Source: Haplodiscus bocki | Taxonomy: Eukaryota | Direction of reading: 5' to 3' | Length of the DNA: 64,000 bases | Assembly: GCA_965655095.1 (NCBI GenBank) | Contig: OZ296649.1 | Span: 108,810,001-108,874,000 of the forward strand | Shown: positions 15,901 to 63,369 of the stretch, piece after piece | How the letters are laid out: every line of letters starts with the position of its first letter | How positions within the stretch are numbered: position 1 is the stretch's first letter | Notes under the pieces: model-generated | What the model was told of the DNA's origin: nothing | The model's input: the letters and a program-made list of their open reading frames with translations, nothing else | The model's database searches: none | Translations under genes and position numbers: made by a program

Positions 15901-18900
15901 AACAAAAAAGACACAAGTAGTTGATTATTTTTCTAAAAAGCGCAGACTAAAAAAACCAACAGTACTTCTAGGGTATGTAGATGATACACTATTATCATCT
16001 AGTCATAAAATCAACCTCCAGAGTGATACTAACTGATTGATTGTTCACTTTAAGCTCCAAAGACTAACTAATTCATACAATGACGAAATATTACCATATC
16101 TAAAAACCACTACCCAGAAAGTTCAACCGGAAATTCCACTCAATATTAACAACAAACAAGGCCATTCCAAATAGAAAAGTCAAAGTACTTGGCCAGCTTC
16201 AAAAAGAACTGCTCTGAGCATCACACCTTCGGATTAATATCGTCTTTTGGAAAGGATTTCAAAACAAGAAGCGAAGTCGCACTGCAATATTTCCCGTCAA
16301 AGGCTCGCAGAAATGACCTATGGAACATACTACTAAAGGTTTCGACACAGAGATCTATATTTGACAAAACAAAAAGTTGTCGAATGAGACCTGTTTAGAA
16401 AAATTGAAGCCTGTAGCTTTGGACAGTTATGAGTTTGAATATCGACAAATTTATGACAATGATTCAAGCTTTTGTGGTCATCGGTCTATCAGGTTTCTGA
16501 TGCTTGTAAGAAACCTAAAGATTTTCATTTGAAAGACTTCCTTCAGATAGAAAGCTGTCAATTAATAACTTGATGGAGGAAATCAAAACGGTAGTTTCGG
16601 AGAAGTTGAGATTTAAATATCGGGATTTGTCCGTACTAATAGCACGTCTCGCCATCAAAATCTCGATGTGAGAAACAAAAATCATGGATGCATTATCAAG
16701 TAGTCCTCAAGTAAATTGATGTCGATTTGGAAACTGACGGAAAAATGAAACGGACAGTGTTGGAAAAATTTTTTTTTGAACATCATTACGAGTCATACAA
16801 GGATGCTTTTTTTTTTAGAAATTTCCGTCTATCAAAGTTTGGGTTACACGAAGGTAAGCCGATTTGTTACTTTCACGCGACCTATAAGAAGAAAATGTGC
16901 GATCGCAGAAAGAAAAATTAGTTCCAATGCCAATATCTCTAAACATGACTCGCAAATTTAGGCATTTTCGTCGTGTCCGGAGTCCAATTTAATCAAAGTG
17001 ACGGTTTTTCATTTACATAGTCTTGCACAGAAAGCTGCTGATTCAGAGCTGGATGTAACAAATTGAGCCATTAGTAATGGAGCAAAATGATTTCGAAGGT
17101 CGAGATTACAATAGTTTTTGGCGTTCTCGGACTGAAAGGATTCCAACGCAATGAACGAAATCAGTGATTTTTCAATGGAGTAGCCTTCCATAGGTAGTAA
17201 AATGTTAGTAGTATAGGTTTGGGGGGGTTAACCGAACACTTTCGTGCTCCCTACAGTGTTATAGCAATTCGATGTTCCTTTTCTATATCTGTGGAACCAT
17301 TTCACGGTCACAGTGTTTAATTTCATTTCTTCTTGATATAGTATTACAAATCAAATACTGCGTGAATACTTAAAGTTTATGTAGCCGCTACATAAGCCCT
17401 AAAGATATTCTTTGTGATTGCAGTTCAGTTATTTTCTTTCATACGCTATTCTACTTAATACAGTTGAGCTATTAAACGGTGCTGTTACCCAGATGAGCTG
17501 TATATATAATCGGTTAGTTTCATTATACATCAATGGTGCCTCTAGCCTGGTGATTTATTCCACTGGGATTTCATGTAAGTCACGAATTCTGGACCAAATG
17601 GTTGGGCGCGCTAGAGTTGGCGGGCTTCTGAAGCAAAATTGGAAGGGGTTTTGAACTTCTGAAATTTTCTGCCTGTTTCATTTTCTCATCCATTGAGTCT
17701 TATATTCGAATATCAGCTCGGAAATTGAACTGAAATTCAACTCTTCGCATTTCAGAGGATCAAAGCCAACCGATGTCATAAAATACTACTTTTGTTCTCG
17801 GTAATTTTTCGCGATCCCTTTGCAGTTCAACGGCTCTTCTCTCAATTTTTCGACAATAACTTTTGCTAATTCGATTTTTTTTCGCCAGAAAAGATAATTT
17901 TACCTTATAAGTTCTTGTTTGGTATTTTGGAAATGAAATGGAGATTATTTGTATAGACCATTAACCAACTCCAATATAATCAGAATTATAAATAGTTGAT
18001 TTTGTTACAATAAATTTGATTGAATTGTTCATTCACTGTCGTCCAAGAGAGACGATTGCTGTCTCTGACTTTGCGATTGCTCGCTTTGCTGACTTGAAGC
18101 GAGACAGAGGCGCGTCTTCATCGGTGATGTTTTCTTCAGCCGCTTCCCTCTTGTATGCAATTTTTGATACTTGTTCAGTTGAACTTGAAGAACCTTGTTG
18201 CGGCTGGTTATGCTGGATACGATCTAGATATCTGTTATAATCCATGACATTTTTCATTACTTCACAGTGGTGTATCGTTATGCCCTCGCCGTCTCTTTCG
18301 AATGTCCCATTCTGTTTGTTCGTCTAGTATTTTCGGAGTGTAATGTACACGGCCTTTCGAATGTGTACATTTGAATTATATACGTACATTGACACACGGA
18401 AAGCTGTATTCGTAGCTAGAACAAATATCCAAATTAAAACTTCTTCTAATCGTCTCGCAGACATTCACCTCCATAGCAAATCTAACAAACATAGTTAATA
18501 CATCCAGATTTCAATGAGTGGTCATATTAATAAGTTAATACTAACTTTGCTCGTTGAGAATGATTGACTAAAATCGAGAATCATTCAGTAGTCCTGAATC
18601 CTCGTTTGCTCGCAGCGGCACCAAGACGTCTCGTGGGGCGATGTTGTTTCCCAGCAAGCTGAAGAGTATTCTTGTCCAGTTGAGTTGGGTCAACTTTGTG
18701 AAATGTTGACCGTTAATTACCATATCCTGGCTGCCTGTATCTGACATTTCGCCAAATTCGTCGAAACGCTTCTTCGTGAAAGCCAGGTGGGCTTTCCCGG
18801 CAAACATCCGCACCCTCAGCTCTCGCGGTTCGTGCAGCATCATTGTTGAGAAGTTTTCATTGTTTTCAGCCACAGCGATTATGAAGCGGAAATTTTAAAA

Positions 18901-21900
18901 AATTATGGGAAGAATTTAGATCTCTTTGATGCCTAAGCTAGTTTGACAATGACTTTAGTTGAGTTTGTTCTCGCTTTCGATAACTCCCAACTGTTAGATA
19001 CAAGTTATCGTTGGCTGACCACCGACTTTTACTGTCATGCCATGGACATTTTGATGGTAAGTCTATTGATGTTGGTGAAAAGCTCAATTGTATTGATAGC
19101 TATCTGATTGTTTTGTGCATTCTTGTGTGAAATGTGTCGGTTATAAGTTTGGTCTCGCGCCTATTTGGGATGTCGCCCTGATGAGTAGAGGTCTCTTGGA
19201 GTGACTGGCGAGAGATTAAGTAAATAATCAGATGAAACCTTTCTTAATTCATTTGGTCCCAAACTTTTGATACTTACTGTATCATCAAGTCCATTATCGG
19301 AGAGTATTTTAGAAAGCTCAACTCTCGAAGAACTTTGTTGGGATGGAAACGCAGAAAAATGATAAGTCAATCTACGTTGCTTTCATGTTTCCACCCTAGG
19401 TGAAAATGGTTTATACATGTTTCCATCCCAACTGGTACTGTGTTCAGCTACAAAATCAGCTCTTCGATTATTTCCCTTTTGGTGGGACTGTTAGAGATCT
19501 TTCCAAAAATGCCGAGCTGTAATGATTGTAATAAAGGATTCGACACAAAACGACAACGTTATAAACATGTCCGACTGGTCCACAAAAAAGACCCGATCCC
19601 TCGCAACTTCGAATGCGGGCACTGTCATCAAATTTTTACGCGTCTCAACAATCTTTTAAGACATTTGCGTTCTTTTCACAAGTTTTTCAACTTCCAATGT
19701 AAGAGTTTGCGCTCAAGTTTTTGGTTCGCAATCATCATTAAAGAATCATAATGATTTTTTCATCTGGAGTTCGAAAAGAAGACGTCCAGAGCGCTCCATA
19801 TAGAACTCCGGTTTTATCACTTCACGAAAGCGCTGCTATCAAATCTCATTTCCAAATTTTTGCATAGCCCTCGCAGAAGATCTTGTTGATCCATTCGCCT
19901 TTCTGCTGGATAACAAGGATCATCTGAAAACATTTTTAGTTGAGAAAATTCAGGGGCAGGGACATTCGAGAGTGGGTTTATATTTGCAATTGCAACTGAT
20001 GAAACCCCTCGAGGAACAAAGTGTTACTCCGTACTTCAATTCTAGCCTTTTGCGTGTTGTTGGCATAATTGATGATGATGATGATTGGTTTGAAACTATT
20101 GCGCAAGTAATTTGCCAAATCAATATTTTGCACAGGTGGATCTGGATGGGTAGTGCAGAAGCTGATGAATGTTGACTTGGAAGTTTGCAAAGGCAGAGCC
20201 CTCTCTGGGTCGTCATATATTCCAACACCTCCGAAGATTGAGAAACTGAAAAAAGGTTTACTGAATATCAAAAACGTTTACGACGACTTTTGTTTCCTCT
20301 ACTGTGTTGCTGCAGGCTTGTTCCCATTGACACATAATCGATGCCGTTCAAGTACTCGAGCCGTCTGCCTGAACTGATATTCGATCCGAACAACGTGCCA
20401 ATGAAAATCGAGCACATTCCTAAATTTGAGCACGATAATCTTTCCACTACCGTGAAGATGGCGTTCTCACTACGTGCTATTGGAGGAAGAGGTAGAAAAT
20501 GTTCGGAAGAAGATCAACGTTGTGCTGCTGACGAACACAGAAACGTCCCACTATTGTCTCATCACCAACTTTCAGAACTCCATGCACAAAATGTGTTGAT
20601 CCTATAAAAAGAGCGTGAAGGGAAATAAAACGAAATTTTGTGCGAACTATATGCAATCCGTGTTGAAAAAAAATTCAAAGATCACACAGTGTCTTCCGAG
20701 AATACACCTTTACGAATTGAAATGCCCTCTCCGGAAACGAAATTAAAGTTCTGCAATTGGCAGAAAACACAGCGTTGCGCCTTTATTGTGTACGCTGATT
20801 TGGAAGCACTGCTGGTCCCGAGCAAAAAAACATCGGTCGGTCTACAATCGTTATCGAGAATCAATTTCCAGCCAGCTATGGTGCAGTACTTGTTGACTCC
20901 CGCTCAAGTAGTGTTGTCAAAGAGTCTTTTTTTTGTCGTGAGGAGAACAGTATCAACAAACTGGTCGATTGCCTCAGAAGATGGTTGAAATTTTGTGATG
21001 GAGAAAACCAAAAATATCGTGATCTGAAGAAAGTCTTGGGCACAAAAGAGCGGGAGCAGCTTCTACGGTCCAGTGCGAAGAAATGTTGTTTATGCAAAAG
21101 CGAAATTGAAAGTGATGCGGTCATCCATCATAATCATGCGACAGACGAGGTGTATGGACTCGCTCACTCGAATTGTAATTTAAAAGAAAGGACCGTTAAG
21201 TTCTTGCATGTTTTCTTCCACAACCTGGCTAGGTATGATGCGCATCACATCCTGAAATACCTTTAATTACGACCCAACGAAATCCTTTCAGCAATAGCAC
21301 GTATCGGAGACACTTTTATATCTTTCAGTTTAAAAATTCAAACATCAAAGTACACTACAAAACAAGGCGTCAAAAAGCCTATCTCTAGTGAAATACGATT
21401 CTTTCCAGTTCATGTCCCAAGGACTAGATGGCCTAGCTAAAACGATGGAATTGGGTGATCTAAAGCATTTACGATCAAAATTCAGCTATTTGTCCGACAA
21501 AAACTTTTCAAAACTTAGGGGTAAATCAGCCTTCCCCTATTGTTATCTTGATAGTCTTTCCTCCTTTTGGAAATGACTGGAAAAATAGTCTTTCGGGTAA
21601 AATAGATATCGATGCAAAAGACTACCAAAGAGCGATTGAAATATACCATATTTTCTCCTGTACAACTTTCGGAGAGTACCATGACATTTACCTGACTGTT
21701 GATGTCTACCTCCTAGCTGCTATTTTGGAGAAGTGTCGAAATGTTTTTATGTCAGTCGACGAGCTTGATCCTGTTCATTTTTTCTCTGCTCCCAGTCTAA
21801 GTTGGGAGGCGATGTTGATCACAACGAAATTCGAAATCGAGTTACTTCCGGACATCGATATGCTTCTGTTTTTTGAAAATGCTATTCGCGGTGGCATCAA

Positions 21901-24900
21901 TGGAATAGGTGCGCTTCGGACCTTCAGCGCAAACAATAAGTCTATGCAAAACTATAAAGCAAATGAAGATTCAGTGTTTGGGGCTTTCTTCGATGTAACA
22001 TCGTTGTATGCTGGAACTTTGGAGCAACCGCTTCCTCTGGGCGATTACGTTTGGAGATCTGACCTCACCCTGAATGATATTCTTTCTGCGGACCCTTTCG
22101 GTGATATTGGATATATGGTTGAAATAGACTTACATTATCCTTCTTTTCTTCATTCTTCGCACAACGATCTACCCCTCGCGCTCCAGAAACTTCAAATTAC
22201 TCCGGATTGGCTGTCATCTTATGCGTTGTCCTTTGGACTAAAACCTTCTGTTACTGCTAAACTAGTGGAAACTTTATTCGACAAACTGAACTATGTTTGC
22301 CATTTCCGAAATTTACAATTTTACGTTCAGCAAGGTTTAGAGGTAAAAGCTCCTCATAAGTGTTGCAGTTCAAACAAAGCAGTTGGCTAGGAAAATACAT
22401 TTCTAAAAACACTTCAATGAGGAAGCGTGCAACCTCAGACTTCGAGAAAAACTTCTACAAGTTAATGTCCAATGCATGTTTCGGGAGAATCTCAGGAATC
22501 GACGTGTCATCAAGTTCGTTGTGAATGAGATGCAGGTCAAAAAAGTCATCTTGAAACCCAACTTCAAGTCATTCAACATCATTCAACATCAAGATCTAGT
22601 ATCCGTGCACCTCACAAATACTTTCATTTTGTGGATCAAAGCTAAGCCAGTTGGAGCTTCAATTTTGGACTTGTCAAAGCTCGTTTTATATAAATTCCAC
22701 TACTGTGAAATGAAACCCAGATATAGCGATTCATTGACTGTTGTTTATAAGGACACCGACTCACTACTGTATCGTATAGAAACCGATGATTTGTAGATCG
22801 ATGTGAAGAATTTCGCTCATCTACTGGACCTGTCTGAATACCCGAAGAATCAAAAACTTTATGAGCCGACAAATAAAAAAGTTCTTTTGACAATGAAAGA
22901 TGAGCTTAATGGCCTTATACTGGAAGAAGTTGTTTGCCTCAGATCAAAACTTCATAGTATCAAGTTCAGTGGTGGTGTCAAGCAGAGTGCCAAAAGTGTT
23001 CAGCGCTCGGTGAAAAAGGCTTTGAACCATGTTCCAACATGTTTTATCCTCTGGCACTAGCATTCACAAAAAAATGACCCAGATAAGATCGCTGAATCAT
23101 CAACTATTTGTCGCTCAACTGAATAAGGTTGCTCTCAGTGCCTTTGATGACAAACGATTTTTACTCGACTGTGGCATAAAGTCTTTGGCGTATGGCCATT
23201 CGAGCCTCCAGCAAAAATGTAATCACTTTCGCTTGTTGTTTCACTTGTTCCGTCTTGTTTAGTAACTATAATGCATAGAGAAGACTGTATTTAGCATCTA
23301 TTTGATCCCTTAGCCGTTTTGTTTCTTTAGTTTTTCTGACTGATATCAAGATTTTTTCCAGGTACCCCAGCATTGCGTCACGAAAATCCTGTGCTTTCGG
23401 GAAATGAGGACTGCGACGAGAAACAAATGCTTGACGATGATGAGGACGAATTATTTAGTGACGACCGCAGCCTGGACTGTGCTTCTTCGTCAACATCGGT
23501 TGTTTCGATGCACTCAAAGATTACAATGGAGAGTTACGTATGGTTTTTTTTCACTTCTGCGTCCCAAAATTTGGAAAAGTTTTGAGTGTGTTGTTGACTG
23601 TATTGCACTTTTTCAGCTTCAATTGATCCCGGTTTTATTCCTCGCTCTGAGGACGACACTGCCGACATGGACACATCAGACGTTTGCGATTTTGAGAACC
23701 TAACAGATATTTAAGAGAGTAGTGGAGATGAACAGCAGCGTCAAAACACAAAAATCAATTGTTCCTTTATTGACTTTGAAGCAATTGAAGAACCCACTAC
23801 TTCTTCTGCGCTTTAATAATACAGCACTGGAGATTACCTAATGCTAATTCAGTGGCTCGAAAAGGTTCGAAAAAATAGATTTTTGACTTAACAGCTATTT
23901 TATTTTTTACAAAAGGTTAGTATTACAGTATTCATTGCAAAACAAAACCAAATCTATGTCCTGTAAGTTCTTTAGTGGTTGAAAAACAGGCAAAATGAAA
24001 CAATCGAAGTCGGAATAACGTACAGATTTTTGTTCAATTTTTTGAATCAAATAATGCGCGATGTAGAGGCAACAGAGACCGCAAGTGTTTGAATATGGAG
24101 ACTGGATTGGTAATCTAACGTCGCGAATTTTTATAATTTGTTTTTTTTTCCGAAATTTTTATCAAGTGATCAAAGAATAACTGATACCGTTCTACGGGCT
24201 GACCCAACGGATCCCAAACACAGAAAGAGAAACCTCCTGTCTCTCGTCAGTTGTTCTGTTGTTGTTGTTGTTGTTATCATATAAAAGAAGTAAAAGAAGC
24301 CAATGTACTCCAGCAGATCCAGCACTCGACGTGTTTACAATAAATTAGGTTTGAACATGTAGAATTGAATCGTGTTCGCTCTTTTCTTGTTTGTTTTGCT
24401 GCTTCGTGAAATTTTGTCGATGTCTTGGCAAGGAGAAAATCAATCCAAAATTGTCGGCTGACCATACTCCGCCACACGTTTGGGCTACTTCAGCTAGGGT
24501 TATGTTATCCATTGATCAGACTGTTTTTTAAATGTTGCGCGTGGCGTCAGTAAAGGTTTGGCTGAAGCGTTCACCAACTAAAAGTAATTCTACGGAATGA
24601 GTCAGGGCTTCTGTAAAACTCAACTTCAATGTAATACTGGCTCCCGTGAGCTCTGGAAATAAGGTGAGGTCTTTACCGGGCTCTCTCGACGAAGTCAAAT
24701 CGAATACTAGAAAAGAGTGATTTTCTTCGAAATCACTCATTTCTATACCGTTGCCACCTTTTGTGAAACCAAGAGCACAAATTGTGTTGTAAAACAAACG
24801 AGTGTTTTTGGTCGTGTCAATTGGTGTTCCGGCAATTGGAACGCCATTGCCCCGCTGAATTTCAATTGTACTCAATTGAAATTTATTGTATTGGAACGGC

Positions 24901-46208: not shown

Positions 46209-46213
46209 GGTAG

Positions 46214-46985: not shown

Positions 46986-47101
46986 AATCCGACCAATCAA
47001 AATTAGTACGACTACCCACTAAGCGCTATGTAAAATGTTGAATGAAAAATTATATTTGGAAAGTATCAAACAAAGTTATAATGATAATACTGTCATTTCA
47101 T

Positions 47102-52907: not shown

Positions 52908-53053
52908 ATTTTGCTGCAATTTTGATTGGTTGATCATATTCCCCAAGAGAAATTTTTTTACAAATTCATACAGAATTCATTTCTCATTTTGTCTCAATTC
53001 AAAACAGTTATCACTTACCGATCTTTCTATCTCGCTTCCCAACCTTACTCAAC

Positions 53054-53713: not shown

Positions 53714-53769
53714 TGTTTATAATATTTTTTTCACCATCGTACAAATTTATTCATCTCACTTAATATCTG

Positions 53770-54114
53770 ATGTTCTCTGTTTCTAAATTCAACTTTTCGA
53801 AATTGTTTTTCTTTTCATTCCGCAAAATGTGCTTGTTAGATAAGGTTGTATGCATTAGTTTAGTTCTAGTATTGGTAATCGCGTTTCTGGTTGCTACGAT
53901 AGTTATGTACGAAGCGAATCGTGTCTTGGTACACAATGATACTACTACGTCTTTCACGTTCCAAACGTTATGTAAAGAAGACTACCATGAATATTGTCTT
54001 AACGGAGGAGAATGTTATGTTGTATCAACGAAAGATGAAGAGGAAGCTGTAGCCTGTATGTGTACATCTTTTTATGGAGGTGGTAGATGTGAAAAATATA
54101 TGTGGTGGACGTAA
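53770..54114 (+). CDS. EGF-like growth factor with N-terminal signal/anchor helix (likely start ATG 53827)
   Basis: Hydrophobic VVCISLVLVLVIAFLVATIVMY, an NDT sequon, then C-x7-C-x5-C-x13-C-x-C-x8-C (CKEDYHEYCLNGGECYVVSTKDEEEAVACMCTSFYGGGRC). Confidence 0.9.
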   Translation: MFSVSKFNFSKLFFFSFRKMCLLDKVVCISLVLVLVIAFLVATIVMYEANRVLVHNDTTTSFTFQTLCKEDYHEYCLNGGECYVVSTKDEEEAVACMCTSFYGGGRCEKYMWWT

Positions 54115-54385
54115 AATCACAACAAAACAACCTGACAGAAGTTACTAAATAGGTAAGTAACGATATCTTTTTGAAACAGATCATGAAAAACTGAACAAAA
54201 AACGTGACGCGTCAGAAATTTTAACTGTTTTTTTTCTAACATGTTTGAAATTAATAATGAAATTTTCACAACAGTTGACGAATACAAATATCACAAAACA
54301 TTGAAAAGTTGAAGAATATTAAACGTAATATTAATCAAACTAAAGTTCTTGATATACAGTCATCCTTTCCATCTTAGAAAAAGTA

Positions 54386-55132
54386 TTAATTGGAAGGTTT
54401 TATTTTGAACGATACTAAATTACTTTCATAACCACCGTATCCATCAAGGAAACAGTCAATGATTTTCATTAGTTCCAGTTCAAATTTTGTTTTTCTCCTC
54501 ACACTCTCGACTCTCTCCACAAAAACTGATCCGGTTGTTTGAACTGAAATTGACCTTTGAACTGATGTCAGCATGTGTTTTTTGAACTTCTTTCTGAGTA
54601 GTCGCTTTTTTGCAATGCTGGGCATCTTATCCACTCCTTTATTGAGTTTGTTGAACGAAACGGCTCTTTCCACACTATCGAATATTTCTCCATTTTTCTC
54701 CAACACCTTGCCGCTGAATCTGAACTTGAATAGAGTGTAGAAACAATCAACGTGTTGATATGTGAAGCAAACACGGTCCAGTTTGACGAGTAGGTCATTC
54801 AAATCTTTGTCTGCAAGGAGAAGAACGTGGAATTTGCAGTTTTTCAAATAACAGAATGCAGGATCGTGGACTGCTACACAATAGTCACGACAGAATAGGA
54901 ATTTCTCGTAGTCATCGGTTGAAATAAACAAAGATGTCTCGGAAAATTTTTGGAAAAAGCTTGGAATTACCTGCAACATAACTGCAGCCATTGCTTCGCT
55001 TGCTAAATGACAGAATGGAACGTTGTAAACTTTTACTTTACTAAATGATAGAATGGAACGTTGTACACTTTTACTTTTCAGATCAGTTAGGTTGTTTTTC
55101 ATCCAATAGAAACTTGATTTGCTTTTGACCAA
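54386..55132 (-). CDS. Hypothetical protein with degenerate HUH-like motif (true start probably MAAVML near 54991)
   Basis: YCVAVHDPAFCYLKNCKFHVLLL and C-terminal IIDCFLDGYG; homologous segments at 31784-32315. Confidence 0.65.
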   Translation of the reverse strand: MVKSKSSFYWMKNNLTDLKSKSVQRSILSFSKVKVYNVPFCHLASEAMAAVMLQVIPSFFQKFSETSLFISTDDYEKFLFCRDYCVAVHDPAFCYLKNCKFHVLLLADKDLNDLLVKLDRVCFTYQHVDCFYTLFKFRFSGKVLEKNGEIFDSVERAVSFNKLNKGVDKMPSIAKKRLLRKKFKKHMLTSVQRSISVQTTGSVFVERVESVRRKTKFELELMKIIDCFLDGYGGYESNLVSFKIKPSN

Positions 55133-55409
55133 AAAACAACCATTTCGTTAGCCAATGAAATTTCAACACACCACTTGCTACTGTTTCTCAACACCTTACT
55201 CTCGTAAATTAGAAGGAAGCTTATATGGAAATGTGTTCCAAAAAAGGAATAGATTATTCACAATGCAACCAAAAAATCACTTTTGACCAAACACAGTCAT
55301 TTCGTTAACCAATGAAGTTTGGACACACTACTTGTTACTGTTTATCAATAGCCTATTCTCGTAGGTTAGAAGGAACCATATATGGAAAAGAGTTCCTAAA
55401 AAGGAAATA
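55122..55409. promoter_or_regulatory. Duplicated ~130-bp putative promoter module with CCAAT and GGAA-CArG motifs
   Basis: Copies at about 55122-55251 and 55280-55409. Each has CCAAT and AGGAA followed by GCTTATATGG (55219-55228) or CCATATATGG (55376-55385). Lies between divergent genes. Confidence 0.5.
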
Positions 55410-55551
55410 AAGGCAAATGCGAATGAGAAGCCAAAAAATAACCTCTTCGGTTGTTGTAAACTCAACTCCAATAATCATTTCATCCCGATTCTGTTTCAAA
55501 TACACTCGCTCTAACTTCAATTTCAACAAAAATAATTCATTTTAAAAAAAG

Positions 55552-56139
55552 ATGATTTTCAATATTACTTCAGCACTCGACAAAACGTCTTGTACGGACT
55601 ATGTTGATTTCGGCAAAAATGCGGACCGATTTGGGAGAATTTCTTGGTCCCAAATCGAAAAAGACAATCAGAAGTATCTGGACATCCAACTGAAAGTTTT
55701 CCGAAAAGATGACAAGGGAGACTTCCGCAGACATCAGCAGATAAAGTTGGGGGTATTCGATTTCAAACAACTCCTCTGTTTGCGGAACCCAATTGTTCTG
55801 GCTGTTAGAGAGTTTTCTACAGACGAGACGCTTAAAGAAGTTGTCACTTCACCCCTTTCCAAAGATTTGGATGAACAGCTAAAACATGTTCAAAAGGCTA
55901 TCACAATTGTGGATCGACCCAAAAGGAAGATAATTGCTACCATGAAGAAATACTGCATGGATAAACCGGAAAGCACATACGTGCAACTCCGTCTTTTCAC
56001 GAGAAATAGTCAACATGATAAATTTCAGCAGCTAGTTTTTGTTAACTATAAATATGATGAATTTTTGTGTTTGTTAGATGTTATTAATTCTATATCTGAT
56101 CAAGTGTTGTCGAATCAGTCTCTATGTAACATTGTTTAA
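55552..56139 (+). CDS. Hypothetical protein with two putative PC4-like repeats
   Basis: KYLDIQLKVFRKDDKGDFRRHQQIKLGVFDFKQL and TYVQLRLFTRN..QQLVFVNYKYDEFLCL. Confidence 0.65.
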   Translation: MIFNITSALDKTSCTDYVDFGKNADRFGRISWSQIEKDNQKYLDIQLKVFRKDDKGDFRRHQQIKLGVFDFKQLLCLRNPIVLAVREFSTDETLKEVVTSPLSKDLDEQLKHVQKAITIVDRPKRKIIATMKKYCMDKPESTYVQLRLFTRNSQHDKFQQLVFVNYKYDEFLCLLDVINSISDQVLSNQSLCNIV

Positions 56140-56186
56140 TTCAGGTTATTTCTGTCGAATCATTTTTTTGAATAGAGAGTGTCGAG

Positions 56187-56606
56187 ATGAGTTGGAACAT
56201 TGGAGATAACCGAAATGTTTTCCTAAAATTGAGAACAAAATTGGGGCTTTATCATGTACTTTTAACTTCATCGGAACAAACTCCCAAAAAAGTAAATCTC
56301 ACAATTGTTGAGATGCAACAATTACCAGAAGTCGGAAAGTTCGATTCTGAAAACGAAATCTCTTGTCTCAGGTGGATAATCTTCAACGGAAGACGAAAAA
56401 TTTGTGTCTTTTACAAAAGCGATACCGATTATGTAGCAATTACGGTATATCGATACCGCAATAACATGTATATGAAAGATTCGGATATTGAGCTCAAATT
56501 AACCGAATACAACACACTTTTGGAAAAGAAAAAGTATCTTTTAAGTTATCTCGAAACCTTCTCCAAAAAATTTATCGTAGTGGAGGAGTCAACTTATCAC
56601 AATTGA
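56187..56606 (+). CDS. Hypothetical protein with two short putative PC4-like repeats
   Basis: WNIGDNRNV..KKVNLTIVEMQQL and YVAITVYRYRNNMYMKDSDIELKLTEYNTL. Confidence 0.6.
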   Translation: MSWNIGDNRNVFLKLRTKLGLYHVLLTSSEQTPKKVNLTIVEMQQLPEVGKFDSENEISCLRWIIFNGRRKICVFYKSDTDYVAITVYRYRNNMYMKDSDIELKLTEYNTLLEKKKYLLSYLETFSKKFIVVEESTYHN

Positions 56607-57034
56607 TATTATTTTGCTGGGAGATGGACGTCTTCTTTGTTGTTGCTGTTATTCAATCTTACGCGGGATTGAAACTTTGTTCCCCATTCAAAAAAAACAC
56701 AGTGAGGAAAAATTTATTTTTGAGTGTTTGTCACTGCTTGGATCCAAAAATCTCCTTGCGTGAGATGAATGATTTGTACCCTCACGGTGGACTTATTGGT
56801 TATGGTGATTCATACCTGGACAGTGTGTTACGTTACTCGAAAGTATTTCGTCTACATGCAATTTTGCACGATGCTGCTGGTGCTGTGTATACAGAGAAGA
56901 GGAAAGGACCGGGTTATTGCTATATTATTGGACGTGGACCAAACTCGTGTTTGTTTGGTCATATTACAGGACTTCTTTTTTGTCTCTATTTGAAATTTTT
57001 TGTACCCTCCATATTCAACCGATTCAACTGTTGA
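56603..57034 (+). CDS. Phospholipase A2-like protein
   Basis: GGLIGYGDS..RLHAILHDAAG..GPGYCY; homologous to 31145-31561. True start uncertain. Confidence 0.68.
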   Translation: MILFCWEMDVFFVVAVIQSYAGLKLCSPFKKNTVRKNLFLSVCHCLDPKISLREMNDLYPHGGLIGYGDSYLDSVLRYSKVFRLHAILHDAAGAVYTEKRKGPGYCYIIGRGPNSCLFGHITGLLFCLYLKFFVPSIFNRFNC

Positions 57035-57236
57035 CCAAAATACCATGAGTTACGATAGTGATAATGTTTGTCAGATAACATTTTTAACGATGTAATTTGA
57101 TAAGTTGCGATTTTGTAAGTTTGTATTTTTTATGTGTCCAATTTCTTATATGTTTATGAAATCGAATTGAAGTTTTTCATTGTGTCTCATTTTTGTTCCA
57201 CTGAAACATTACATAACTTTGCACTTTGAGAATCGG

Positions 57237-57497
57237 ATGGCTAACCAAGCAGATCAGATCAACTTAGATAAAACTGTATTCGACGAAAACAATTCAGAAA
57301 GAAAATCCTGGAGTTGTATTGGACATTCTTGTTCAAGATCGCTAATAGTGTTTTTGTCCCAATTTTTCGTCATATTGTTAGTTATCCTGGGCAGTTGTTG
57401 GAGAATACATTTATCAAAATCTTGCGACGAGAGTACAGTTTGGGTGGGAATTTTGTGTAGTGCTGCTGGAATCATTGTTCCTACTCCAAGACTATGA
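57237..57497 (+). CDS. Small two-helix membrane protein
   Basis: MANQ start; hydrophobic LIVFLSQFFVILLVILGSCW and VWVGILCSAAGIIVPTP. Stop overlaps the ATPase start (ATGA). Confidence 0.75.
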   Translation: MANQADQINLDKTVFDENNSERKSWSCIGHSCSRSLIVFLSQFFVILLVILGSCWRIHLSKSCDESTVWVGILCSAAGIIVPTPRL

Positions 57498-58438
57498 ATA
57501 AACTTATTTCTACAAAAAATAGAGTTTTCATCTCTTTAGTGGGACCCGGTGAATCAGGGAAATCTCAACTTATCTATCAATGGTTAAGAAACGACACCTT
57601 CCAACCAAAGTTTGGAAAATTTTTGTTTTTCTACCAGCACTTCCAACCGCTTTACGATGTAATGCTGAAGGAAATCGAAAACATTGAATTTGTTCAGGGT
57701 GTCAATTTTGACTTTATTGATTCTCTGGAGAACAATGGAACTAAATACCTACTAATTTTTGATGACTCTTGTCAAGAAATTTGTAACTCCAGGGAATTCG
57801 AGAAAATTGCTGTAGCAGGAAGACATCGCGGACTAAGTACTATTTACATAAAGCACAATTTATTCCACAAGAGTAAATTGGGAAGAGATATCGAGCTTCA
57901 AAATACTCATATTGTTCTATTCAAGTCACCGCGAGATGTATTACAAGTTGGTAGGCTCAGTGTTCAGTTGGGGCTAGGTTTGTCGCTTGTGGATTGGTAT
58001 AAAGATGCAACATCCGTACCATTTGGTCATTTATTAATTGACTGGTCTCCCCGAACGGATGATCGTTTACGATACTGTACAAACAGTGGAACAAAACCCT
58101 CAAAATTTTACATACCTGAACAGTTGAAACATTTGAGAATTTTGGACGATGACCATACAAAATCTCTCTATTCTCCAAGCATTCCAACACTTTTCCCCCA
58201 AGTGCAAAATACAATTTCTCCAAAACTCCCCGAAAGAATTCATTCGGTTCCTAAGCGAATGTATAGTGAACCTGCTCCACGGAAATTTGCAAGATTTGAA
58301 AAAAGAGCAAGTAATAAAATATCGAAAACAAATCCACGCACTTTCTCTGGTAAGAACAACTTGGAAAGAAAGACGAAGAATTTTGTCAACAAAAAAAGGA
58401 CTGTTACTAATAAAAACAATATCCCCATTCGTCATTAG
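57494..58438 (+). CDS. A32/FtsK-HerA family genome packaging ATPase
   Basis: Walker A GPGESGKS, Walker B LLIFDD, AGRHRGLS, HNLF and PFGHLLID. Confidence 0.95.
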   Translation: MNKLISTKNRVFISLVGPGESGKSQLIYQWLRNDTFQPKFGKFLFFYQHFQPLYDVMLKEIENIEFVQGVNFDFIDSLENNGTKYLLIFDDSCQEICNSREFEKIAVAGRHRGLSTIYIKHNLFHKSKLGRDIELQNTHIVLFKSPRDVLQVGRLSVQLGLGLSLVDWYKDATSVPFGHLLIDWSPRTDDRLRYCTNSGTKPSKFYIPEQLKHLRILDDDHTKSLYSPSIPTLFPQVQNTISPKLPERIHSVPKRMYSEPAPRKFARFEKRASNKISKTNPRTFSGKNNLERKTKNFVNKKRTVTNKNNIPIRH

Positions 58439-58451
58439 TCATTTATCTTGA
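58149..58451 (+). CDS. Small basic conserved Polinton protein, overlapping the ATPase tail
   Basis: ECIVNLLHGNL motif; homologue in the old element at 29569-29925. Confidence 0.8.
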   Translation: MTIQNLSILQAFQHFSPKCKIQFLQNSPKEFIRFLSECIVNLLHGNLQDLKKEQVIKYRKQIHALSLVRTTWKERRRILSTKKGLLLIKTISPFVISHLS

Positions 58452-58452
58452 C

Positions 58453-58866
58453 ATGGAACAGTTCGTGCTTGTACCAATTTCCGTGTATAACAGTAACAAA
58501 ACAAAACCAACCCTTGTTACAAAGAAGGAACTAACAACTTATCAGAGCGAAGAAAAACCCACGTACCAGATTGAATCTGTAAAGAAAGAAATCAATAAAA
58601 ACCTTTTTGCTAAAGCTGATTCTCTCGTTGATAAAGTTTTGTCTTCACCTCGCATAAAACTTTCGACCTCGAACTTTTTAATTTTGGATGGAAGGGATAC
58701 TGGAGTTTCTCTGACAAACTTTGCCCAGACATTGAAACTTAAAAAGGCGGAGGTACCAGATATTTATTTTACTTTACTTGATGCTGCGGATATTACACCC
58801 AGCTTGGTTCTGAATAATCATGCCAAAGAAAAAGAGAGAGGGAGCTGGGTTCCTTTCAAGATCTGA
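58453..58866 (+). CDS. Hypothetical conserved Polinton protein
   Basis: Intact 137-aa ORF packed between its neighbours; homologue at 29016-29567. Confidence 0.75.
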   Translation: MEQFVLVPISVYNSNKTKPTLVTKKELTTYQSEEKPTYQIESVKKEINKNLFAKADSLVDKVLSSPRIKLSTSNFLILDGRDTGVSLTNFAQTLKLKKAEVPDIYFTLLDAADITPSLVLNNHAKEKERGSWVPFKI

Positions 58867-59758
58867 GAAACAAAAACTGCAAAAGTTGTACAGCGAAGGT
58901 CCTGCAGCTTATGGTTCAGTCAAAAACTTGACAAAGGCAAGCAAACTCCCAGTTTCAAAAGTGCAGTATTTTCTTCATTCAAAGTCCTCCTACACGAGAT
59001 TTAACCAAGCAACCAGAAAATTCCGGAGAATGAGAGCTTTCGCTAGATTCAAAAACGAAATTTGGTGTATGGACTTGGCATTTGTCGACAAATTAGCCAA
59101 AGACAACAATGGAGTAAAATATTTGCTCGTTCGTCAAGACATGTTTGACAGAACGGTGGATGCAAAAGGAATGAAAACAAAGGATTCAAAAGAAACCGTT
59201 AAAAGTTTTTCCAAAATGATTACAAAAAAGATTCGACCAAAAAAGATTTGGGTAGACCAAGGTACAGAATTTGCCGGAGATTTCAAAAAGTTCTGTAATG
59301 CTGAGGGAATACATGTTTACTCCACAATGAGTGAAACAAAGGCAACTTTTGCAGAGAGAACAATCAGGTCACTCAAAAAAATCTTATACAGATATATGGA
59401 GGAACATGGATACAAATATATTCACAAATTGTCTCAATTTGTCAGGATTTTGAATTCGAGAAAAACTCGCATGATAAACATGATACCAAACAAAGTCAAG
59501 AATTCCGATTTTATGTCAATTCTTTATGGCCAACCTATAAGAGAATTCACTCCACCCAAATTGGCCATAGGCGATAAAGTTCGGATTTCCAAGATTGATT
59601 TACCCTTCAGAAAAGGTTATAAACCTCAGTTTACGGAAGAAATTTTTGAGATTGTTGCCCTTGCTAGCAGAAAACCTCCGACATACACTATAAAAGACAA
59701 TCAGAATTTGGTTATACGTGGTAAATTTTACGAAAAGGAAATGATTAGAGTCATTTGA
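58820..59758 (+). CDS. Retroviral-type DDE integrase
   Basis: WCMDL (D), WVDQGTEF (D), AERTIRSLK (E), GDKVRISK..FRKGYKPQFTEEIF, GKFYEKE. Confidence 0.96.
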   Translation: MPKKKREGAGFLSRSEKQKLQKLYSEGPAAYGSVKNLTKASKLPVSKVQYFLHSKSSYTRFNQATRKFRRMRAFARFKNEIWCMDLAFVDKLAKDNNGVKYLLVRQDMFDRTVDAKGMKTKDSKETVKSFSKMITKKIRPKKIWVDQGTEFAGDFKKFCNAEGIHVYSTMSETKATFAERTIRSLKKILYRYMEEHGYKYIHKLSQFVRILNSRKTRMINMIPNKVKNSDFMSILYGQPIREFTPPKLAIGDKVRISKIDLPFRKGYKPQFTEEIFEIVALASRKPPTYTIKDNQNLVIRGKFYEKEMIRVI

Positions 59759-59760
59759 GA

Positions 59761-60564
59761 ATGGATTCCTTCACAATAGAGTTGGTTTCAAACGCATCCT
59801 CCGAATTGTTTCCGGATAATACTTTGATTCCTTTCACGAACTTCCTTCCCGAACAAGTCAACTTAGAAGGTCAATGGGAGGTCGCAGTATCAGAGATTTC
59901 GTATCCCTCAATGTACCAGAATGTAACGGAAGGAAAATTCTTATTTCACGACAATGAATTATCAAAAACAAAAGATTACTACTATCTTGAACCAGGATTA
60001 TATCATTCTATTACCGACATAGTAGAAGCGATGAACTCACTCATTCAGAATAGAAACAATCACAACACGACCTGCATCGGCTTGAAAGTTGACCGTAGAT
60101 CTCAGAAAGTGACTTTTTCGCTTGTTAATGATAAATCTAGTTTGGTGATATCTAGTATCGACTTGGGTCACATTTTTGGAGGTGACGTCCGGAACGATCG
60201 GGGGATTTTGATGCTTGGTAAGGGACCACACAAACCGTTGTTTGCATACGACATTGTTCGAATTCATTCGCTCATGATTTACACTGATATTGTAGAGTAC
60301 AACATAGTCGGAGATACGAAAGCACCCTTATTGCGATGCTTTCCTTTCATATCAAAGGTAAAGTCCGGTGATGTCATTACCACGGGACAGTACATGAATT
60401 ATCAGACTTTCAGTAATCTACAATTCCGTAGGTTGTTGAAAAACTCCTTTCATAGTGTACAAATTGATTTGCGTGACACGTCTGGGGAGCAAATTCCTTT
60501 TGTTTCTGTGGGAATAACCAGACTTGTTCTCATGTTCAGAAAAGTGTCTGATTTTCATTTTTAA
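59761..60564 (+). CDS. Minor capsid protein (penton-like)
   Basis: LVSNAS.LFPDNT..FTNFLP..LEGQWEVAVSEISYP; IYTDIVEYNIVGDTKAPLLR; IDLRDTSGEQIPF. Confidence 0.9.
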   Translation: MDSFTIELVSNASSELFPDNTLIPFTNFLPEQVNLEGQWEVAVSEISYPSMYQNVTEGKFLFHDNELSKTKDYYYLEPGLYHSITDIVEAMNSLIQNRNNHNTTCIGLKVDRRSQKVTFSLVNDKSSLVISSIDLGHIFGGDVRNDRGILMLGKGPHKPLFAYDIVRIHSLMIYTDIVEYNIVGDTKAPLLRCFPFISKVKSGDVITTGQYMNYQTFSNLQFRRLLKNSFHSVQIDLRDTSGEQIPFVSVGITRLVLMFRKVSDFHF

Positions 60565-60582
60565 ACGAAAAACGTGTACCAA

Positions 60583-60948
60583 ATGGTCGCTTCAAGAGAA
60601 GTAGAACTTCCCTATTACAAAGGAGTGGGAAGACAACGAGGACGAGGGTTTGGCGCTCTCGCTCAAGTTATTGGGAGAACTGCTATTCCTTTCTTGAAAA
60701 AATATGTTGTCCCAGCTGCTAGACGTATCGGTGCTGATATGTTCGGGTTCGCAGTACCTGAAATTGCTGACGTTGTCAGTGGAAAACAAAATTTCAAAGC
60801 AGCTGCTAAAAACGTGGGAAGGCAAACTCTAAAAAAACAACTCGGTGGTGGAAGTAGGAAACGCTCCGCGAGCAAAGTCATTCAGTCTAAATCCAAGAAG
60901 CGGAACAGTCGGTCACGCAGAGATATATTCACTAACGTTGCGACGTGA
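60583..60948 (+). CDS. Basic amphipathic core/membrane-lytic protein with candidate protease cleavage sites
   Basis: RQRGRGFGALAQVIGRTAIPFLKK amphipathic helix, QLGGG site and an Arg/Lys-rich tail; lies between penton and MCP. Confidence 0.75.
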   Translation: MVASREVELPYYKGVGRQRGRGFGALAQVIGRTAIPFLKKYVVPAARRIGADMFGFAVPEIADVVSGKQNFKAAAKNVGRQTLKKQLGGGSRKRSASKVIQSKSKKRNSRSRRDIFTNVAT

Positions 60949-62315
60949 AAATGACTTCACAAAATAACTTTCGGTACCACCCATATGTGGCAGTTTCTGG
61001 CAATCTTGGTGGTAAAGTCCCAGTTGTAGATGATGTCCTATCATCTCATGAACAACAAATTTACCCCACCACGTCGCTGGATGAAAACAGCATTGAATTT
61101 GAGTTTCAAACAGATCGTAACTATTACGTTGATTTGCGTCAGTCTTATTTAGCTCTTAAAGTTAAATTAGTCAAAGGACGTGGTTATGACACACACAAAT
61201 CGAAAGAAGCTAAGAAAGAACACAAAAACGAAGAACAGCCAACAGATGCAGCAGCCAATGATGAAGAGGATGATACTAACTCGGTACCCCTTCTTACATA
61301 TGTAAACAATATTATGCATTCTATTTTTTCTAATGTGGAGGTGTATATAAACAATCAGCAAATATACAACTCAAATGGACTCTATGCTCACAAGTCGTAT
61401 ATTTCCAACAACTTTAAGGGAGCGATCTCTGAGTACAAAGGTGTTTTGCATTGTGAAGGTTATGACTTCGAAGAGAATCCTGATGACATTCAAGACTCGC
61501 TCCTGTCTGATCCCTTCTTTTCAAGAAGAATGAAAATGCTACTGAGAAGTGACGGATTTGCGTTATACGGAAAATTGGGTGTTGATTTTTTCACAACCTC
61601 TGAATTACTTTATCCAAATATGAAAGTTAGATTACGATTAATCAGAGCGAGACCTAACTTTTACATGATTAGCGACAACCCTAATGTTAGTTTAGGAATT
61701 GTAGACTGTACGTTGTACACACGTCGCATTGGACTAAAGGAGGATTATCACAAGAAAAGAATGGACATGCTTGCATATGCTCCGGTGGAATACAACTATA
61801 TGGAAACGTTGGCAAAGACATTTATCATTCCATCCAGTCAAAATCAATTCATTCAAGAAAATATTTTCAACAATGCTCCCATTCGTCGAATCGCGATAGC
61901 CATGAATACAAACTCCGCTTTCACTGGTTCTTTCACTGAAAACCCGTTTTGGTATCAACAATTCGATCTCAGACAAATTAGAATACTTAGGGGAGGCCAA
62001 CCAATTGTAGATTATGACACTTCCGATAATTGTCGCCTATACGTAACTACGATGAAAGCAATGAACTTCCAAGACGACATACCATCGATTCCTATTGATA
62101 ATTTTCAAGACCATTACGTTCTAGTATTTGATTTGACGTCAATGCAGGATGCCACCGAACATTGTCATTATCCAGAGTTGGTTGGAGAACCGTTGAGATT
62201 GGAGCTTAACTTTAACACTGCTCTGGAACATGTTACTGAAGTCATTGTATTAGGAGAACGAATGTCTTCAGTTGCAGTCGACAAGTTTGGAGTTGTTGGT
62301 AAAAATATTCAGTAA
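60945..62315 (+). CDS. Major capsid protein (double jelly-roll, hexon-like)
   Basis: IEFEF..YVDLRQSYL, NNIMHSIFSNVEVYIN, NPFWYQQFDL, VFDLT, LRLELNF; 456 aa, intact. Confidence 0.93.
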   Translation: MKMTSQNNFRYHPYVAVSGNLGGKVPVVDDVLSSHEQQIYPTTSLDENSIEFEFQTDRNYYVDLRQSYLALKVKLVKGRGYDTHKSKEAKKEHKNEEQPTDAAANDEEDDTNSVPLLTYVNNIMHSIFSNVEVYINNQQIYNSNGLYAHKSYISNNFKGAISEYKGVLHCEGYDFEENPDDIQDSLLSDPFFSRRMKMLLRSDGFALYGKLGVDFFTTSELLYPNMKVRLRLIRARPNFYMISDNPNVSLGIVDCTLYTRRIGLKEDYHKKRMDMLAYAPVEYNYMETLAKTFIIPSSQNQFIQENIFNNAPIRRIAIAMNTNSAFTGSFTENPFWYQQFDLRQIRILRGGQPIVDYDTSDNCRLYVTTMKAMNFQDDIPSIPIDNFQDHYVLVFDLTSMQDATEHCHYPELVGEPLRLELNFNTALEHVTEVIVLGERMSSVAVDKFGVVGKNIQ

Positions 62316-62321
62316 ACTTTC

Positions 62322-62714
62322 ATGGATAACGTTGCTCTTCGTCAAATAATAAACCGCATTCCACTTCTCAAGTATCGGTACAATGGTTCTTTTCCTTGCG
62401 ATTATGTTCCAACACTCCCAAATGATACGTTTGCCATTATCAACACACAACCGAGCAACATGCAAGGTGAGCATTGGATTATGATAGCAAGGCTTCGTCA
62501 TCTGTTATATTTTGCTGATTCTCTTGGTCGCAAAGACTACAACTTCCTCAGGAGAAACTACAAACGGATGATCCCAGAACGGTTGCAGCTTCATCAGAGC
62601 CTTTGTGGATTTTATACAATATATGCGGCTTTTCTGCTCTTCAAGTTTGGACAAGAAGAAATTACTGGTGTTCACGATTTAAATGTACTCTCTTTTATTA
62701 GTAATTATATGTAG
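62322..62714 (+). CDS. Adenain-type (C5) maturation cysteine protease
   Basis: IINT..GEHW (His), YFADSLG (Asp), LQ...SLCGFY (oxyanion Gln and catalytic Cys). Confidence 0.93.
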   Translation: MDNVALRQIINRIPLLKYRYNGSFPCDYVPTLPNDTFAIINTQPSNMQGEHWIMIARLRHLLYFADSLGRKDYNFLRRNYKRMIPERLQLHQSLCGFYTIYAAFLLFKFGQEEITGVHDLNVLSFISNYM

Positions 62715-62879
62715 TGCTCCATAAAATTTAATGTTAGTATGCAGTGTATACATTTCACTTGTTCCTTTTTGTACTTCTAATTAACATTTTTCAACTTAAA
62801 ATCAACCTTTTTTTTACATAACAACTAGTTCTAAGCACGGTCGGAAAAGTTTATTCAACCTTTTTACATAGCACTAAGT

Positions 62880-63369
62880 GCGATGTCGTCCATCAATTCC
62901 AGCTCTCGTAAAACAAAGACGACTACTAAATGATGTTCGCATTCGTGTGCACGTGTGTTTCTCTGAACAACTTCATTCATGTTCGTATTGTCTGTTAATA
63001 TATTTGTATAATACTGGGAATCTTTCCCTATTCCTATTGGACGCGGAGTTAAAACGCCATAGGATGAACAATATTCTTATATGATAAAGTCTCCGCCTCG
63101 ATTTTCCGCCGTCCGCCGCCCGTCTCGGCCTATGCCGAAAAATTACCTAATAAAGTCTCCGTCGCTGCCGCCCGCCTCGACGCTTCCGCCGCCCGCCTCG
63201 GCCTATGCCGAAAAATTACCTAATAAAGTCTCCGCCGACCGCCTCGGGGCCCCTGGAAAATATCAAAACAGGGGGTGAAGACCCTTCTCGGCTCTCGGGT
63301 GCTATAGGCTATGTTAAAACATGAGGGTCTTCACCCCCTCCTGGCTGTCTTGCTCGCCTATATACTACT
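62880..63369 (-). repeat. Right TIR (490 bp) of young Polinton
   Basis: Reverse complement of 45221-45710. Confidence 0.96.

What the first reader, a model, noticed from the sequence alone, without database searches (positions are those of the whole stretch)
17207..63369. Two neighbouring Polintons share one virion/integration chassis but carry different polymerase types
Seen: both have the colinear block PLA2, 2TM, ATPase, basic ORF, hypothetical ORF, INT, penton, core protein, MCP, protease, with recognisable similarity and AGTAGTATA termini. The old pPolB has an HNH/EndoVII-like zinc insert in the exonuclease region (about 21080-21185) and a DDKR..AYGH end. The young pPolB has a Vsr-like insert after motif A (about 48370-48730) and a YFYPKR end. 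The polymerase also lies at opposite ends of the block: downstream and convergent in the old element, upstream and divergent in the young one. Established: Polinton pPolBs fall into distinct groups and polymerase replacement has been reported. Inference: a replication-module swap within one host lineage, with a nuclease fused to the polymerase in both states.
Basis: partly seen in the sequence, partly recalled or inferred. Interest (0 to 1): 0.72.

Follow-up and report, generated by a model that had tools for sequence, protein, structure and literature searches.

The report
Two Polintons with unrelated DNA polymerases
Two virus-like jumping elements sit side by side in what is probably a marine acoel worm genome; they share the usual capsid gene block but carry two long-known, unrelated types of DNA polymerase, the trace of an ancient gene replacement of a kind already described.

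Summary
Both Polintons are real: a decayed one (17207-33311) and a recent one (45221-63369), each with terminal inverted repeats and a 6-bp target duplication. The gene block is colinear, the polymerases are only about 22% identical and lie at opposite ends, and both nuclease inserts are present.

They are not one chassis with a fresh swap. Chassis proteins are 29-52% identical, the gene order is the one published for vertebrate Mavericks, and a capsid tree rejects the two as sisters (AU p = 9e-6). Each nuclease is a fixed trait of its polymerase class (44 of 45, and 47 of 47, relatives).

A replacement did happen, long ago. A third lineage with the Vsr polymerase has a capsid about equally far from both elements, while its polymerase is about seven times closer to the young one. 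Most likely the old lineage took an EndoVII-type (Alpha) polymerase onto a Beta-type capsid module, a known chimera. 'Within one host lineage' is untested.

New details: a likely acoel host for the Vsr class, a probable second swap in the old copy's own line, and a neuregulin-like gene in the young element.

The parts
17207..33311 (.). Old, decayed Polinton (16,105 bp); about 108-bp terminal inverted repeats; TSD AATGTT/AACGTT
19509..23214 (+). Old pPolB, EndoVII/DDKR type (zinc fingers, vOTU-like region, Exo, palm), broken by several frameshifts and stops
   Evidence: tblastn of unbroken relatives; Pfam DNA_pol_B_2 weak; motifs; vOTU label from recalled motif
21084..21179 (+). HNH / endonuclease VII zinc insert between ExoI and ExoII
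   Evidence: Pfam PF02945 E 1e-5; coordinates
23910..24344 (-). Old protease remnants
   Evidence: open stretches; 20-aa match to young protease
24525..25817 (-). Old major capsid protein gene, in three pieces
   Evidence: 90% to P0365 family
26204..26407 (-). Old core protein (PW-like), matched part
   Evidence: 43% to young
26744..27573 (-). Old penton (minor capsid), broken
   Evidence: 31-52% to young
27611..28657 (-). Old rve integrase, broken
   Evidence: 29-39% to young
29016..29567 (-). Old hypothetical ORF (PZ position)
   Evidence: ORF; weak match E 0.23
29569..29925 (-). Old basic ORF (PM position)
   Evidence: 30% over 91 aa, E 7e-13
29897..30590 (-). Old packaging ATPase, broken
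   Evidence: 32-51% to young
31145..31561 (-). Old PLA2-like ORF
   Evidence: 42% to young; PLA2 label by recalled motif only
45221..63369 (.). Young Polinton (18,149 bp); 490-bp identical inverted repeats; TSD TACCTC
45826..46985 (.). Tandem arrays (28-bp and 150-bp units) between left repeat and polymerase end
47102..51459 (-). Young pPolB, Vsr type; one gene broken by a frameshift near 50740
48370..48730 (-). Vsr-like (DUF559-like) insert between motifs A and B
52299..56606 (.). Accessory ORFs of the young element, with no match in the old element
53770..54114 (+). Membrane-anchored neuregulin-like EGF ORF
   Evidence: PDB neuregulin-1 E 2e-6; Pfam EGF E 0.002, below cut-off
56624..57034 (+). 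Young PLA2-like ORF
   Evidence: no Pfam hit
57237..57497 (+). Two-transmembrane ORF
   Evidence: hydrophobic stretches read from the sequence
57494..58438 (+). Packaging ATPase
   Evidence: Pfam Pox_A32 E 0.008
58149..58451 (+). Basic ORF (PM position), overlapping the ATPase tail
58453..58866 (+). Hypothetical ORF (PZ position)
58820..59758 (+). rve integrase
   Evidence: Pfam rve E 7e-9
59761..60564 (+). Penton (minor capsid)
   Evidence: position and match to old; name from gene order, fold not tested
60583..60948 (+). Core protein (PW position)
60951..62315 (+). Double jelly-roll major capsid protein
   Evidence: model pLDDT 80; Foldseek to PBCV-1, Sputnik and mavirus MCPs
62322..62714 (+). 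Adenovirus-like maturation protease
   Evidence: Pfam Peptidase_C5 E 0.007

Best explanation
These are two independent insertions from two long-separated Polinton families. Each copies itself with its own protein-primed polymerase and integrates with its rve integrase (6-bp target duplication). Both descend from the same broad capsid-module class, with the vertebrate-type order ATPase-PM-PZ-INT-penton-PW-MCP-protease (order and MCP distance shown; class label inferred). The polymerase is a loosely coupled module. Deep in the past, before the old clade spread (its MCPs now range from about 54% to 90% identity), the ancestor of the old family acquired an EndoVII/DDKR polymerase of the other Polinton group and placed it downstream of the protease. 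The young family kept a Vsr-type polymerase upstream. The replacement is shown by distance discordance; its direction, and the route (recombination between two co-resident element genomes), are inferred. Each nuclease came with its polymerase class and is most likely a domesticated helper domain that nicks or resolves branched replication intermediates (inferred, untested).
For: MCP trees put old and young on opposite sides of several starred branches; AU test of old+young as one clade, p = 9.3e-6 on 20 rows. Matching polymerases to capsids by identical record length gave 9 links on 8 records among 276 x 219 entries, about 0.4 expected by chance: old-type polymerase with old-clade MCP on 5 of 5 records, Vsr-type with the P0432 MCP cluster on 3 of 3. 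One link is in Convolutriloba macropyga (LOC142335839 and LOC142335841 on one record). Discordance: P0432 MCP is 1.80 from young and 1.95-2.36 from old-type MCPs, but its linked polymerase is 0.68 from young and about 4.95 from old-type; identities 39% versus 40-43% for MCP, 56% versus 20-22% for polymerase. The old polymerase is nearer a Sycon ciliatum (sponge) polymerase (2.16) than its neighbour's (4.78). Inserts are class-wide and mutually exclusive. Literature passages: VSR insert defines group I (PMC10328495); insect Maverick PolB has a weak EndoVII hit and strong bidnavirus similarity (PMC5803895); Alpha PolB with Beta virion chimeras are known (PMC8502044; PMC11071296); gene order (PMC8097293).
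Against: Only the MCP was put in trees; integrase and ATPase relatives were not fetched. Links rest on record length, and 4 of the 8 records are long enough to hold several elements. The polymerase distance of about 5 is saturated and rests on a hard alignment. The Alpha/Beta labels were not tested against the reference sequences. Both elements carry a PLA2-like ORF, which Starrett et al. call typical of Alpha, not Beta, virion modules. The trees have no root, so direction is inferred.
Confidence: 0.7

Rival explanations
1. One reading: a swap within one host lineage between otherwise closely related elements, as in Caenorhabditis.
For: Colinear block and shared AGTAGTATA ends. Both polymerase types occur in one named acoel species. 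Sampled MCPs on the path between the two include an acoel one (P0575), so a broad acoel radiation is possible.
Against: Chassis identity 29-52% against 66-92% in the nematode case. Sister grouping rejected. No linked record among 8 shows a young-clade MCP with an old-type polymerase, or the reverse. Inverted repeats unrelated past 9 bases.
Confidence: 0.12
2. No replacement at all: two ancient Polinton groups, each fully vertical, that merely share the family-wide gene order.
For: All 9 links sort polymerase type and MCP side congruently. Co-existence of two groups in one genome is reported as common (PMC5803895; PMC8097293).
Against: Among linked elements the MCP changes about two to two-and-a-half times as fast as the polymerase core (1.80 versus 0.68; 1.28 versus 0.70), yet across the divide the ratio reverses (about 2.0-2.4 versus about 5).
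Confidence: 0.1
3. Same replacement, opposite direction, or two replacements: the ancestral partner of this capsid module was a third polymerase (pPolB1 type), and both present polymerases are incomers.
For: Jeong et al. list 28 pPolB1 and 0 pPolB2 in 2 xenacoelomorph genomes (supplementary table 2 row) and treat pPolB2-VSR as an incomer in nematodes. The middle MCP clade (P0420, P0445) has no link to either polymerase type in my tables.
Against: No third polymerase was seen here, but none was searched for. The missing link may reflect sampling (15 members listed per cluster).
Confidence: 0.08

Closest known systems
Adintoviruses with Alpha PolB and Beta-class virion module (Starrett et al. 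2021, PMC8502044; AB/BA pairings in Buck et al. 2024, PMC11071296)
   Same: Old element: pfam03175-type polymerase with an EndoVII insert on a capsid block with the vertebrate-type gene order; chimera of replication and virion modules.
   Different: Probable acoel host; a PLA2-like ORF where Starrett et al. report gasdermin-X for Beta modules; class labels not tested directly here.
VSR-bearing pPolB2 Polintons of molluscs and the marine nematode Trissonchulus (Jeong et al. 2023, PMC10748475)
   Same: Young element: Vsr-like insert between Pol A and Pol B (their supplementary label order); top Atlas cluster for the insert region is mostly molluscan.
   Different: Their survey lists no pPolB2 in Xenacoelomorpha. 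Their swap joins near-identical chassis; here the chassis are far apart. Their HNH label follows ExoIII; the old element's lies between ExoI and ExoII.
Vertebrate (group I) Mavericks (Barreat and Katzourakis 2021, PMC8097293)
   Same: Gene order ATPase-PM-PZ and INT-minor capsid-PW-MCP-protease; (AGT)2 ends; 6-bp TSD; module orientation varies between species.
   Different: Here all eight block genes form one run on one strand, with the polymerase separate at either end.
Spodoptera Sf Maverick 1 and 2 (PMC5803895)
   Same: Two lineages in one genome, same small-ORF order, polymerase on opposite strands, weak EndoVII domain in POLB.
   Different: Their two polymerases are 52% identical (one class); here they are about 22%.

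Membership tests
Polinton/Maverick | 13-25 kb, terminal inverted repeats, 5-8 bp TSD, (AGT)2 ends | tested here: met
   16.1 and 18.1 kb; definition
Polinton/Maverick | pPolB plus rve integrase | tested here: met
   rve E 7e-9; PF03175 in relatives of both polymerases; motifs A, B, C
Polinton/Maverick | Double jelly-roll MCP, packaging ATPase, adenovirus-like protease | tested here: met
   (MCP); weak Pfam hits for ATPase and protease; old copies by homology
pPolB2, VSR subgroup (Jeong 2023) - young element | VSR-like domain between Pol A and Pol B | tested here: met
   A-B distance 304 versus median 156 in old type; DUF559 above cut-off in P0040; position in the paper read from label order
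pPolB2, VSR subgroup (Jeong 2023) - young element | Groups with mollusc pPolB2 in a tree | not testable with these tools
   Reference sequences not available as tool input; Atlas lead only
Alpha PolB / group II - old element | pfam03175 type, no VSR insert, EndoVII domain | tested here: met
   descriptions
Alpha PolB / group II - old element | Strong BLASTP hit to bidnavirus PolB | not testable with these tools
   No bidnavirus sequence reached; the phage collection gave no match
Beta (Terrapene-class) virion module | Vertebrate-type gene order | tested here: met
   PM, PZ and PW names assigned by position
Beta (Terrapene-class) virion module | Hexon clusters with the Terrapene reference | tested here: inconclusive
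   BFVD search gave no close adintovirus hexon (best 22% identity); relatives are named F54H12.2-like
Beta (Terrapene-class) virion module | GasderminX and cupiennin-like genes rather than PLA2X | tested here: inconclusive
   A PLA2-like ORF is present by recalled motif, with no Pfam hit; gasdermin and cupiennin likeness not examined
Nematode-type recent pPolB swap (Jeong 2023) | Non-polymerase proteins stay closely similar (66-92%) and intermix in trees | tested here: not met
   29-52%; AU p = 9.3e-6

The most novel reading that the evidence does not exclude
Polymerase-nuclease fusion genes act as selfish, homing-like modules that keep displacing one another among co-resident acoel Polintons: the fused nuclease cuts a rival element genome and repair copies in the cutter's polymerase. 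The window would record two nested events, the ancient class-level replacement and a later one inside the old family. The old copy's capsid is 90% identical to the P0365 family, yet its polymerase is at most 62% identical to any of 50 old-type polymerases tested and is rejected as a member of that family's linked polymerase clade (AU p = 1e-5).
Probability: 0.15. Interest if true: 0.7.

Novelty: new member of a known kind. Interest (0 to 1): 0.36.

Why it matters
Polymerase and capsid modules of Polintons are known to reassort, so the pair itself is ordinary. What it adds: (1) a probable acoel host for the Vsr-type polymerase class, which a broad survey did not list for that phylum; (2) a high-copy radiation in which polymerase turnover can be counted element by element, which would test whether the fused nucleases drive the turnover; (3) a neuregulin-like gene in the young element, of interest because neuregulin-EGFR signalling gathers stem cells in the acoel Hofstenia (PMC13046036, abstract).

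Tried and rejected
No whole genome is held, so copies could not be mapped. Scans of viral contigs with six single proteins found no relative. The metagenome scan gave 3 contigs of 1.1-1.6 kb, too short to link genes. The genome-contig scan gave one weak 68-aa match, L004, not followed up. The phage collection had no match to either polymerase type. A single-sequence fold of the young polymerase failed (pLDDT 31), and its fold search is meaningless; so the Vsr fold was not shown by structure. PDB sequence searches gave nothing for the Vsr insert, for P0040 or for the MCP profile, and only zinc fingers among the 60 of 126 rows shown for P0124. No RNA holder was listed. Contigs of four runs laid on 47140-62720 cover all 30 bins in three runs and 24 in the fourth, but cannot rank genes. 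Starrett's supplement was cut when stored and held none of the motifs searched; its sequence files and Jeong's alignment figures, which I could not see, bear on the class labels. The careful 32-row MCP tree did not finish; the quick tree was used. P0554 was dropped from the polymerase tree for low coverage. Rejected: nuclease fusion as a peculiarity of this pair; identity of the old HNH with Jeong's oomycete/nematode HNH (different position, read from label order only). Searches for prior print: Polinton with acoel terms, with endonuclease VII and with EGF-like or growth factor showed no paper on acoel Polintons or on a Polinton EGF gene in the listings. Earlier scan notes near this place, or on look-alikes: none.
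Full report
What is there. The window holds two Polintons about 12 kb apart. The young one spans 45221-63369, with 490-bp inverted repeats that are 100% complementary and the target duplication TACCTC. The old one spans 17207-33311, with about 108-bp repeats (97 of 107 bases identical) and the duplication AATGTT/AACGTT. No whole genome is held. The only animal names among close relatives are from the acoel Convolutriloba macropyga, so an acoel host is likely but inferred.

The block. Young proteins match the old element in reverse order on the minus strand for 7 of 10 block genes, at 29-52% identity. The 2TM, hypothetical and protease genes match only weakly. The young MCP folds as a double jelly roll (pLDDT 80; PBCV-1, Sputnik and mavirus hits). 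The order ATPase, PM, PZ, integrase, minor capsid, PW, MCP, protease is the one described for vertebrate Mavericks, where module orientation also varies (PMC8097293, section read; my PM, PZ and PW names are positional). Colinearity is therefore family-wide and is not evidence of close kinship. The young accessory ORFs have no match in the old element.

The polymerases. The young protein gives no tblastn hit to the old gene at E < 0.01 and is 22-26% identical to unbroken old-type relatives over parts of its length. It is itself broken by one frameshift near 50740; full-length relatives are about 1,446 aa. Its insert lies between motifs A and B. The A-B distance is 301-306 in all 47 of 120 listed relatives that span it, 36 of the 47 keep the DG..E..GC..H motif, and old-type proteins have a median of 156. 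The Vsr-like family DUF559 passes its cut-off in P0040, and DUF559 or MTES_1575 hits weakly in 8 more of 10 relatives scanned. The old gene carries Pfam Endonuclease_7 between ExoI and ExoII, and 44 of the 45 relatives that cover this region (of 57 found) carry it too. None of 57 old-type proteins has the Vsr motif and none of 120 young-type has the HNH motif. So each nuclease is an inherited class trait. A VSR insert is the published mark of group I Mavericks (PMC10328495, passages) and of marine pPolB2 (PMC10748475, parts 1-4 of 7 read). A weak EndoVII hit is reported for insect Maverick POLB, which is strongly bidnavirus-like (PMC5803895, passages), the mark of Alpha PolB (PMC8502044, section 3.1 and passages). 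Group numbers differ between papers: Jeong et al. place their pPolB1 and pPolB2 in 'Group 2'.

Is it one chassis? Not closely. In MCP trees of 32, 20 and 97 rows the two elements lie on opposite sides of several starred branches. Holding old and young together is rejected (AU p = 9.3e-6; 6 rows against 14; LG+G4). In the nematode swap, by contrast, non-polymerase proteins are 66-92% identical. To see which polymerase goes with which capsid elsewhere, I paired proteins by identical record length: 9 links on 8 records among 276 polymerase and 219 capsid entries, about 0.4 expected by chance. All 5 old-type records pair with old-clade MCPs, including neighbouring loci in C. macropyga. All 3 Vsr-type records pair with the P0432 cluster, which lies on the young side. 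No cross-pairing was seen. Four of the 8 records are long enough to hold several elements, which weakens those links.

Was there a swap? Yes, but an old one. The P0432 capsid is 1.80 substitutions per site from the young MCP and 1.95-2.36 from old-type MCPs, while its linked polymerase is 0.68 from the young and about 4.95 from old-type ones. Within each class the MCP changes roughly two to two-and-a-half times as fast as the polymerase core; across the divide the ratio reverses. The old polymerase is closer to one from the sponge Sycon ciliatum (2.16) than to its neighbour's (4.78). The simplest reading is one replacement on the path to the old clade: an EndoVII (Alpha) polymerase entered a Beta-type module and came to lie downstream of the protease. 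This is the chimera described by Starrett et al.; both mixed pairings are reported by Buck et al. (PMC11071296, passages), and frequent reassortment by a 2026 preprint (10.64898/2026.10.13.758929, passages). Against this reading: the trees are unrooted, only the MCP was tested, the large distances are saturated, the class labels were not checked against reference sequences, and both elements carry a PLA2-like ORF that Starrett et al. tie to Alpha modules. Whether the event took place inside acoels is open. One intermediate MCP clade includes a C. macropyga member, but most intermediates have no host name.

A second, later discordance. The old copy's MCP is 90% identical to the 49-member P0365 family, yet its polymerase is at most 62% identical to 50 old-type polymerases tested. 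The capsid tree nests it with the 249-kb and 17-kb linked elements; the polymerase tree places it outside. Forcing it in with the 249-kb element's polymerase is rejected (p = 1e-5), and so is forcing the capsid out. Matching end repeats and target duplication argue that this predates insertion. The caveats are real: the key link is on a long record, and the search took only proteins of 540 aa or more. I put this at about 60%.

How it most likely works. From established knowledge: the integrase excises and inserts the element, the polymerase primes on its own terminal-protein domain after vOTU cleavage (PMC11161782, passages), and the capsid genes allow particles. Inferred: the polymerase needs only its own terminal protein and the genome ends, so it can be exchanged when two element genomes meet in one nucleus. 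The nucleases are kept in almost every relative, which fits a domesticated role in nicking or resolving branched strand-displacement intermediates (my best guess, about 65%). A homing-like role that drives polymerase replacement (about 15%) or an inactive structural relic (about 20%) are not excluded. Krupovic et al. suggest intein invasions as the origin of such inserts. No activity was tested.

What is new. Jeong's supplementary table lists 28 pPolB1 and no pPolB2 in 2 xenacoelomorph genomes (row seen), so a large Vsr-type family in a probable acoel extends the known range, if the class assignment holds. The young element also encodes a membrane-anchored EGF domain whose best PDB matches are neuregulin-1 (Pfam EGF below cut-off). 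Neuregulin-EGFR signalling gathers stem cells in Hofstenia (PMC13046036, abstract). Listings showed no paper on acoel Polintons or on such a gene; the library lacks most subscription papers. Earlier scan notes describe Vsr-type polymerases in other genomes; one led me to the group I definition, which I then read.

Verdict. It is a new member of a known kind; interest 0.36.

Noticed in passing
window 53770-54114 (+): 114-aa ORF with an N-terminal hydrophobic anchor and an ErbB-ligand-type EGF domain; best PDB hits are neuregulin-1 (E 2e-6). A possible viral growth-factor mimic, like poxvirus growth factors (recalled). Neuregulin-EGFR gathers neoblasts in Hofstenia (PMC13046036, abstract).
   Followed up: partly
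window 19509-23214 versus 24525-25817: The old copy's MCP is 90% identical to the P0365 family, but its polymerase is at most 62% identical to 50 old-type polymerases and falls outside the linked clade: a probable later, within-class polymerase swap.
   Followed up: partly
window 45826-46985, 51805-51961, 55000-55077: Tandem arrays of 28-bp and 150-bp units past the polymerase 3' end, three 52-bp repeats upstream of it, and two 38-bp repeats; they are not copies of each other.
   Followed up: no
window 52299-52907, 55552-56139, 56187-56606 (+), 30873-31253 (-): Small ORFs that by eye recall PC4-like single-strand DNA-binding domains (recalled); no Pfam support and no mutual BLAST match.
   Followed up: partly
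window 28661-28852 (-): Cys/His-rich, PHD-like stretch between the hypothetical ORF and the integrase of the old element; no counterpart seen in the young one; no Pfam PHD hit.
   Followed up: partly
window 21126-21140: The acoel-associated old-type clade has His-His where more distant relatives have Asp-His at the start of the HNH motif.
   Followed up: no
window 18036-18894 (-): Two open stretches between the old left repeat and the polymerase start, without Pfam hits; probably accessory gene remnants.
   Followed up: partly
window 5961-10147 (+): Broken non-LTR retroelement: PHD finger ORF and reverse transcriptase.
   Followed up: no
window 11534-11875 and 12937-13302 (+): Probable host gene pieces: NF-Y-like histone-fold ORF (E 3e-10) and a weak leucine-rich repeat.
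   Followed up: no
proteins P0420, P0445: A third, abundant MCP clade (131 and 60 members; one member named from Convolutriloba macropyga) lies between the two families and has no linked polymerase in my tables.
   Followed up: partly
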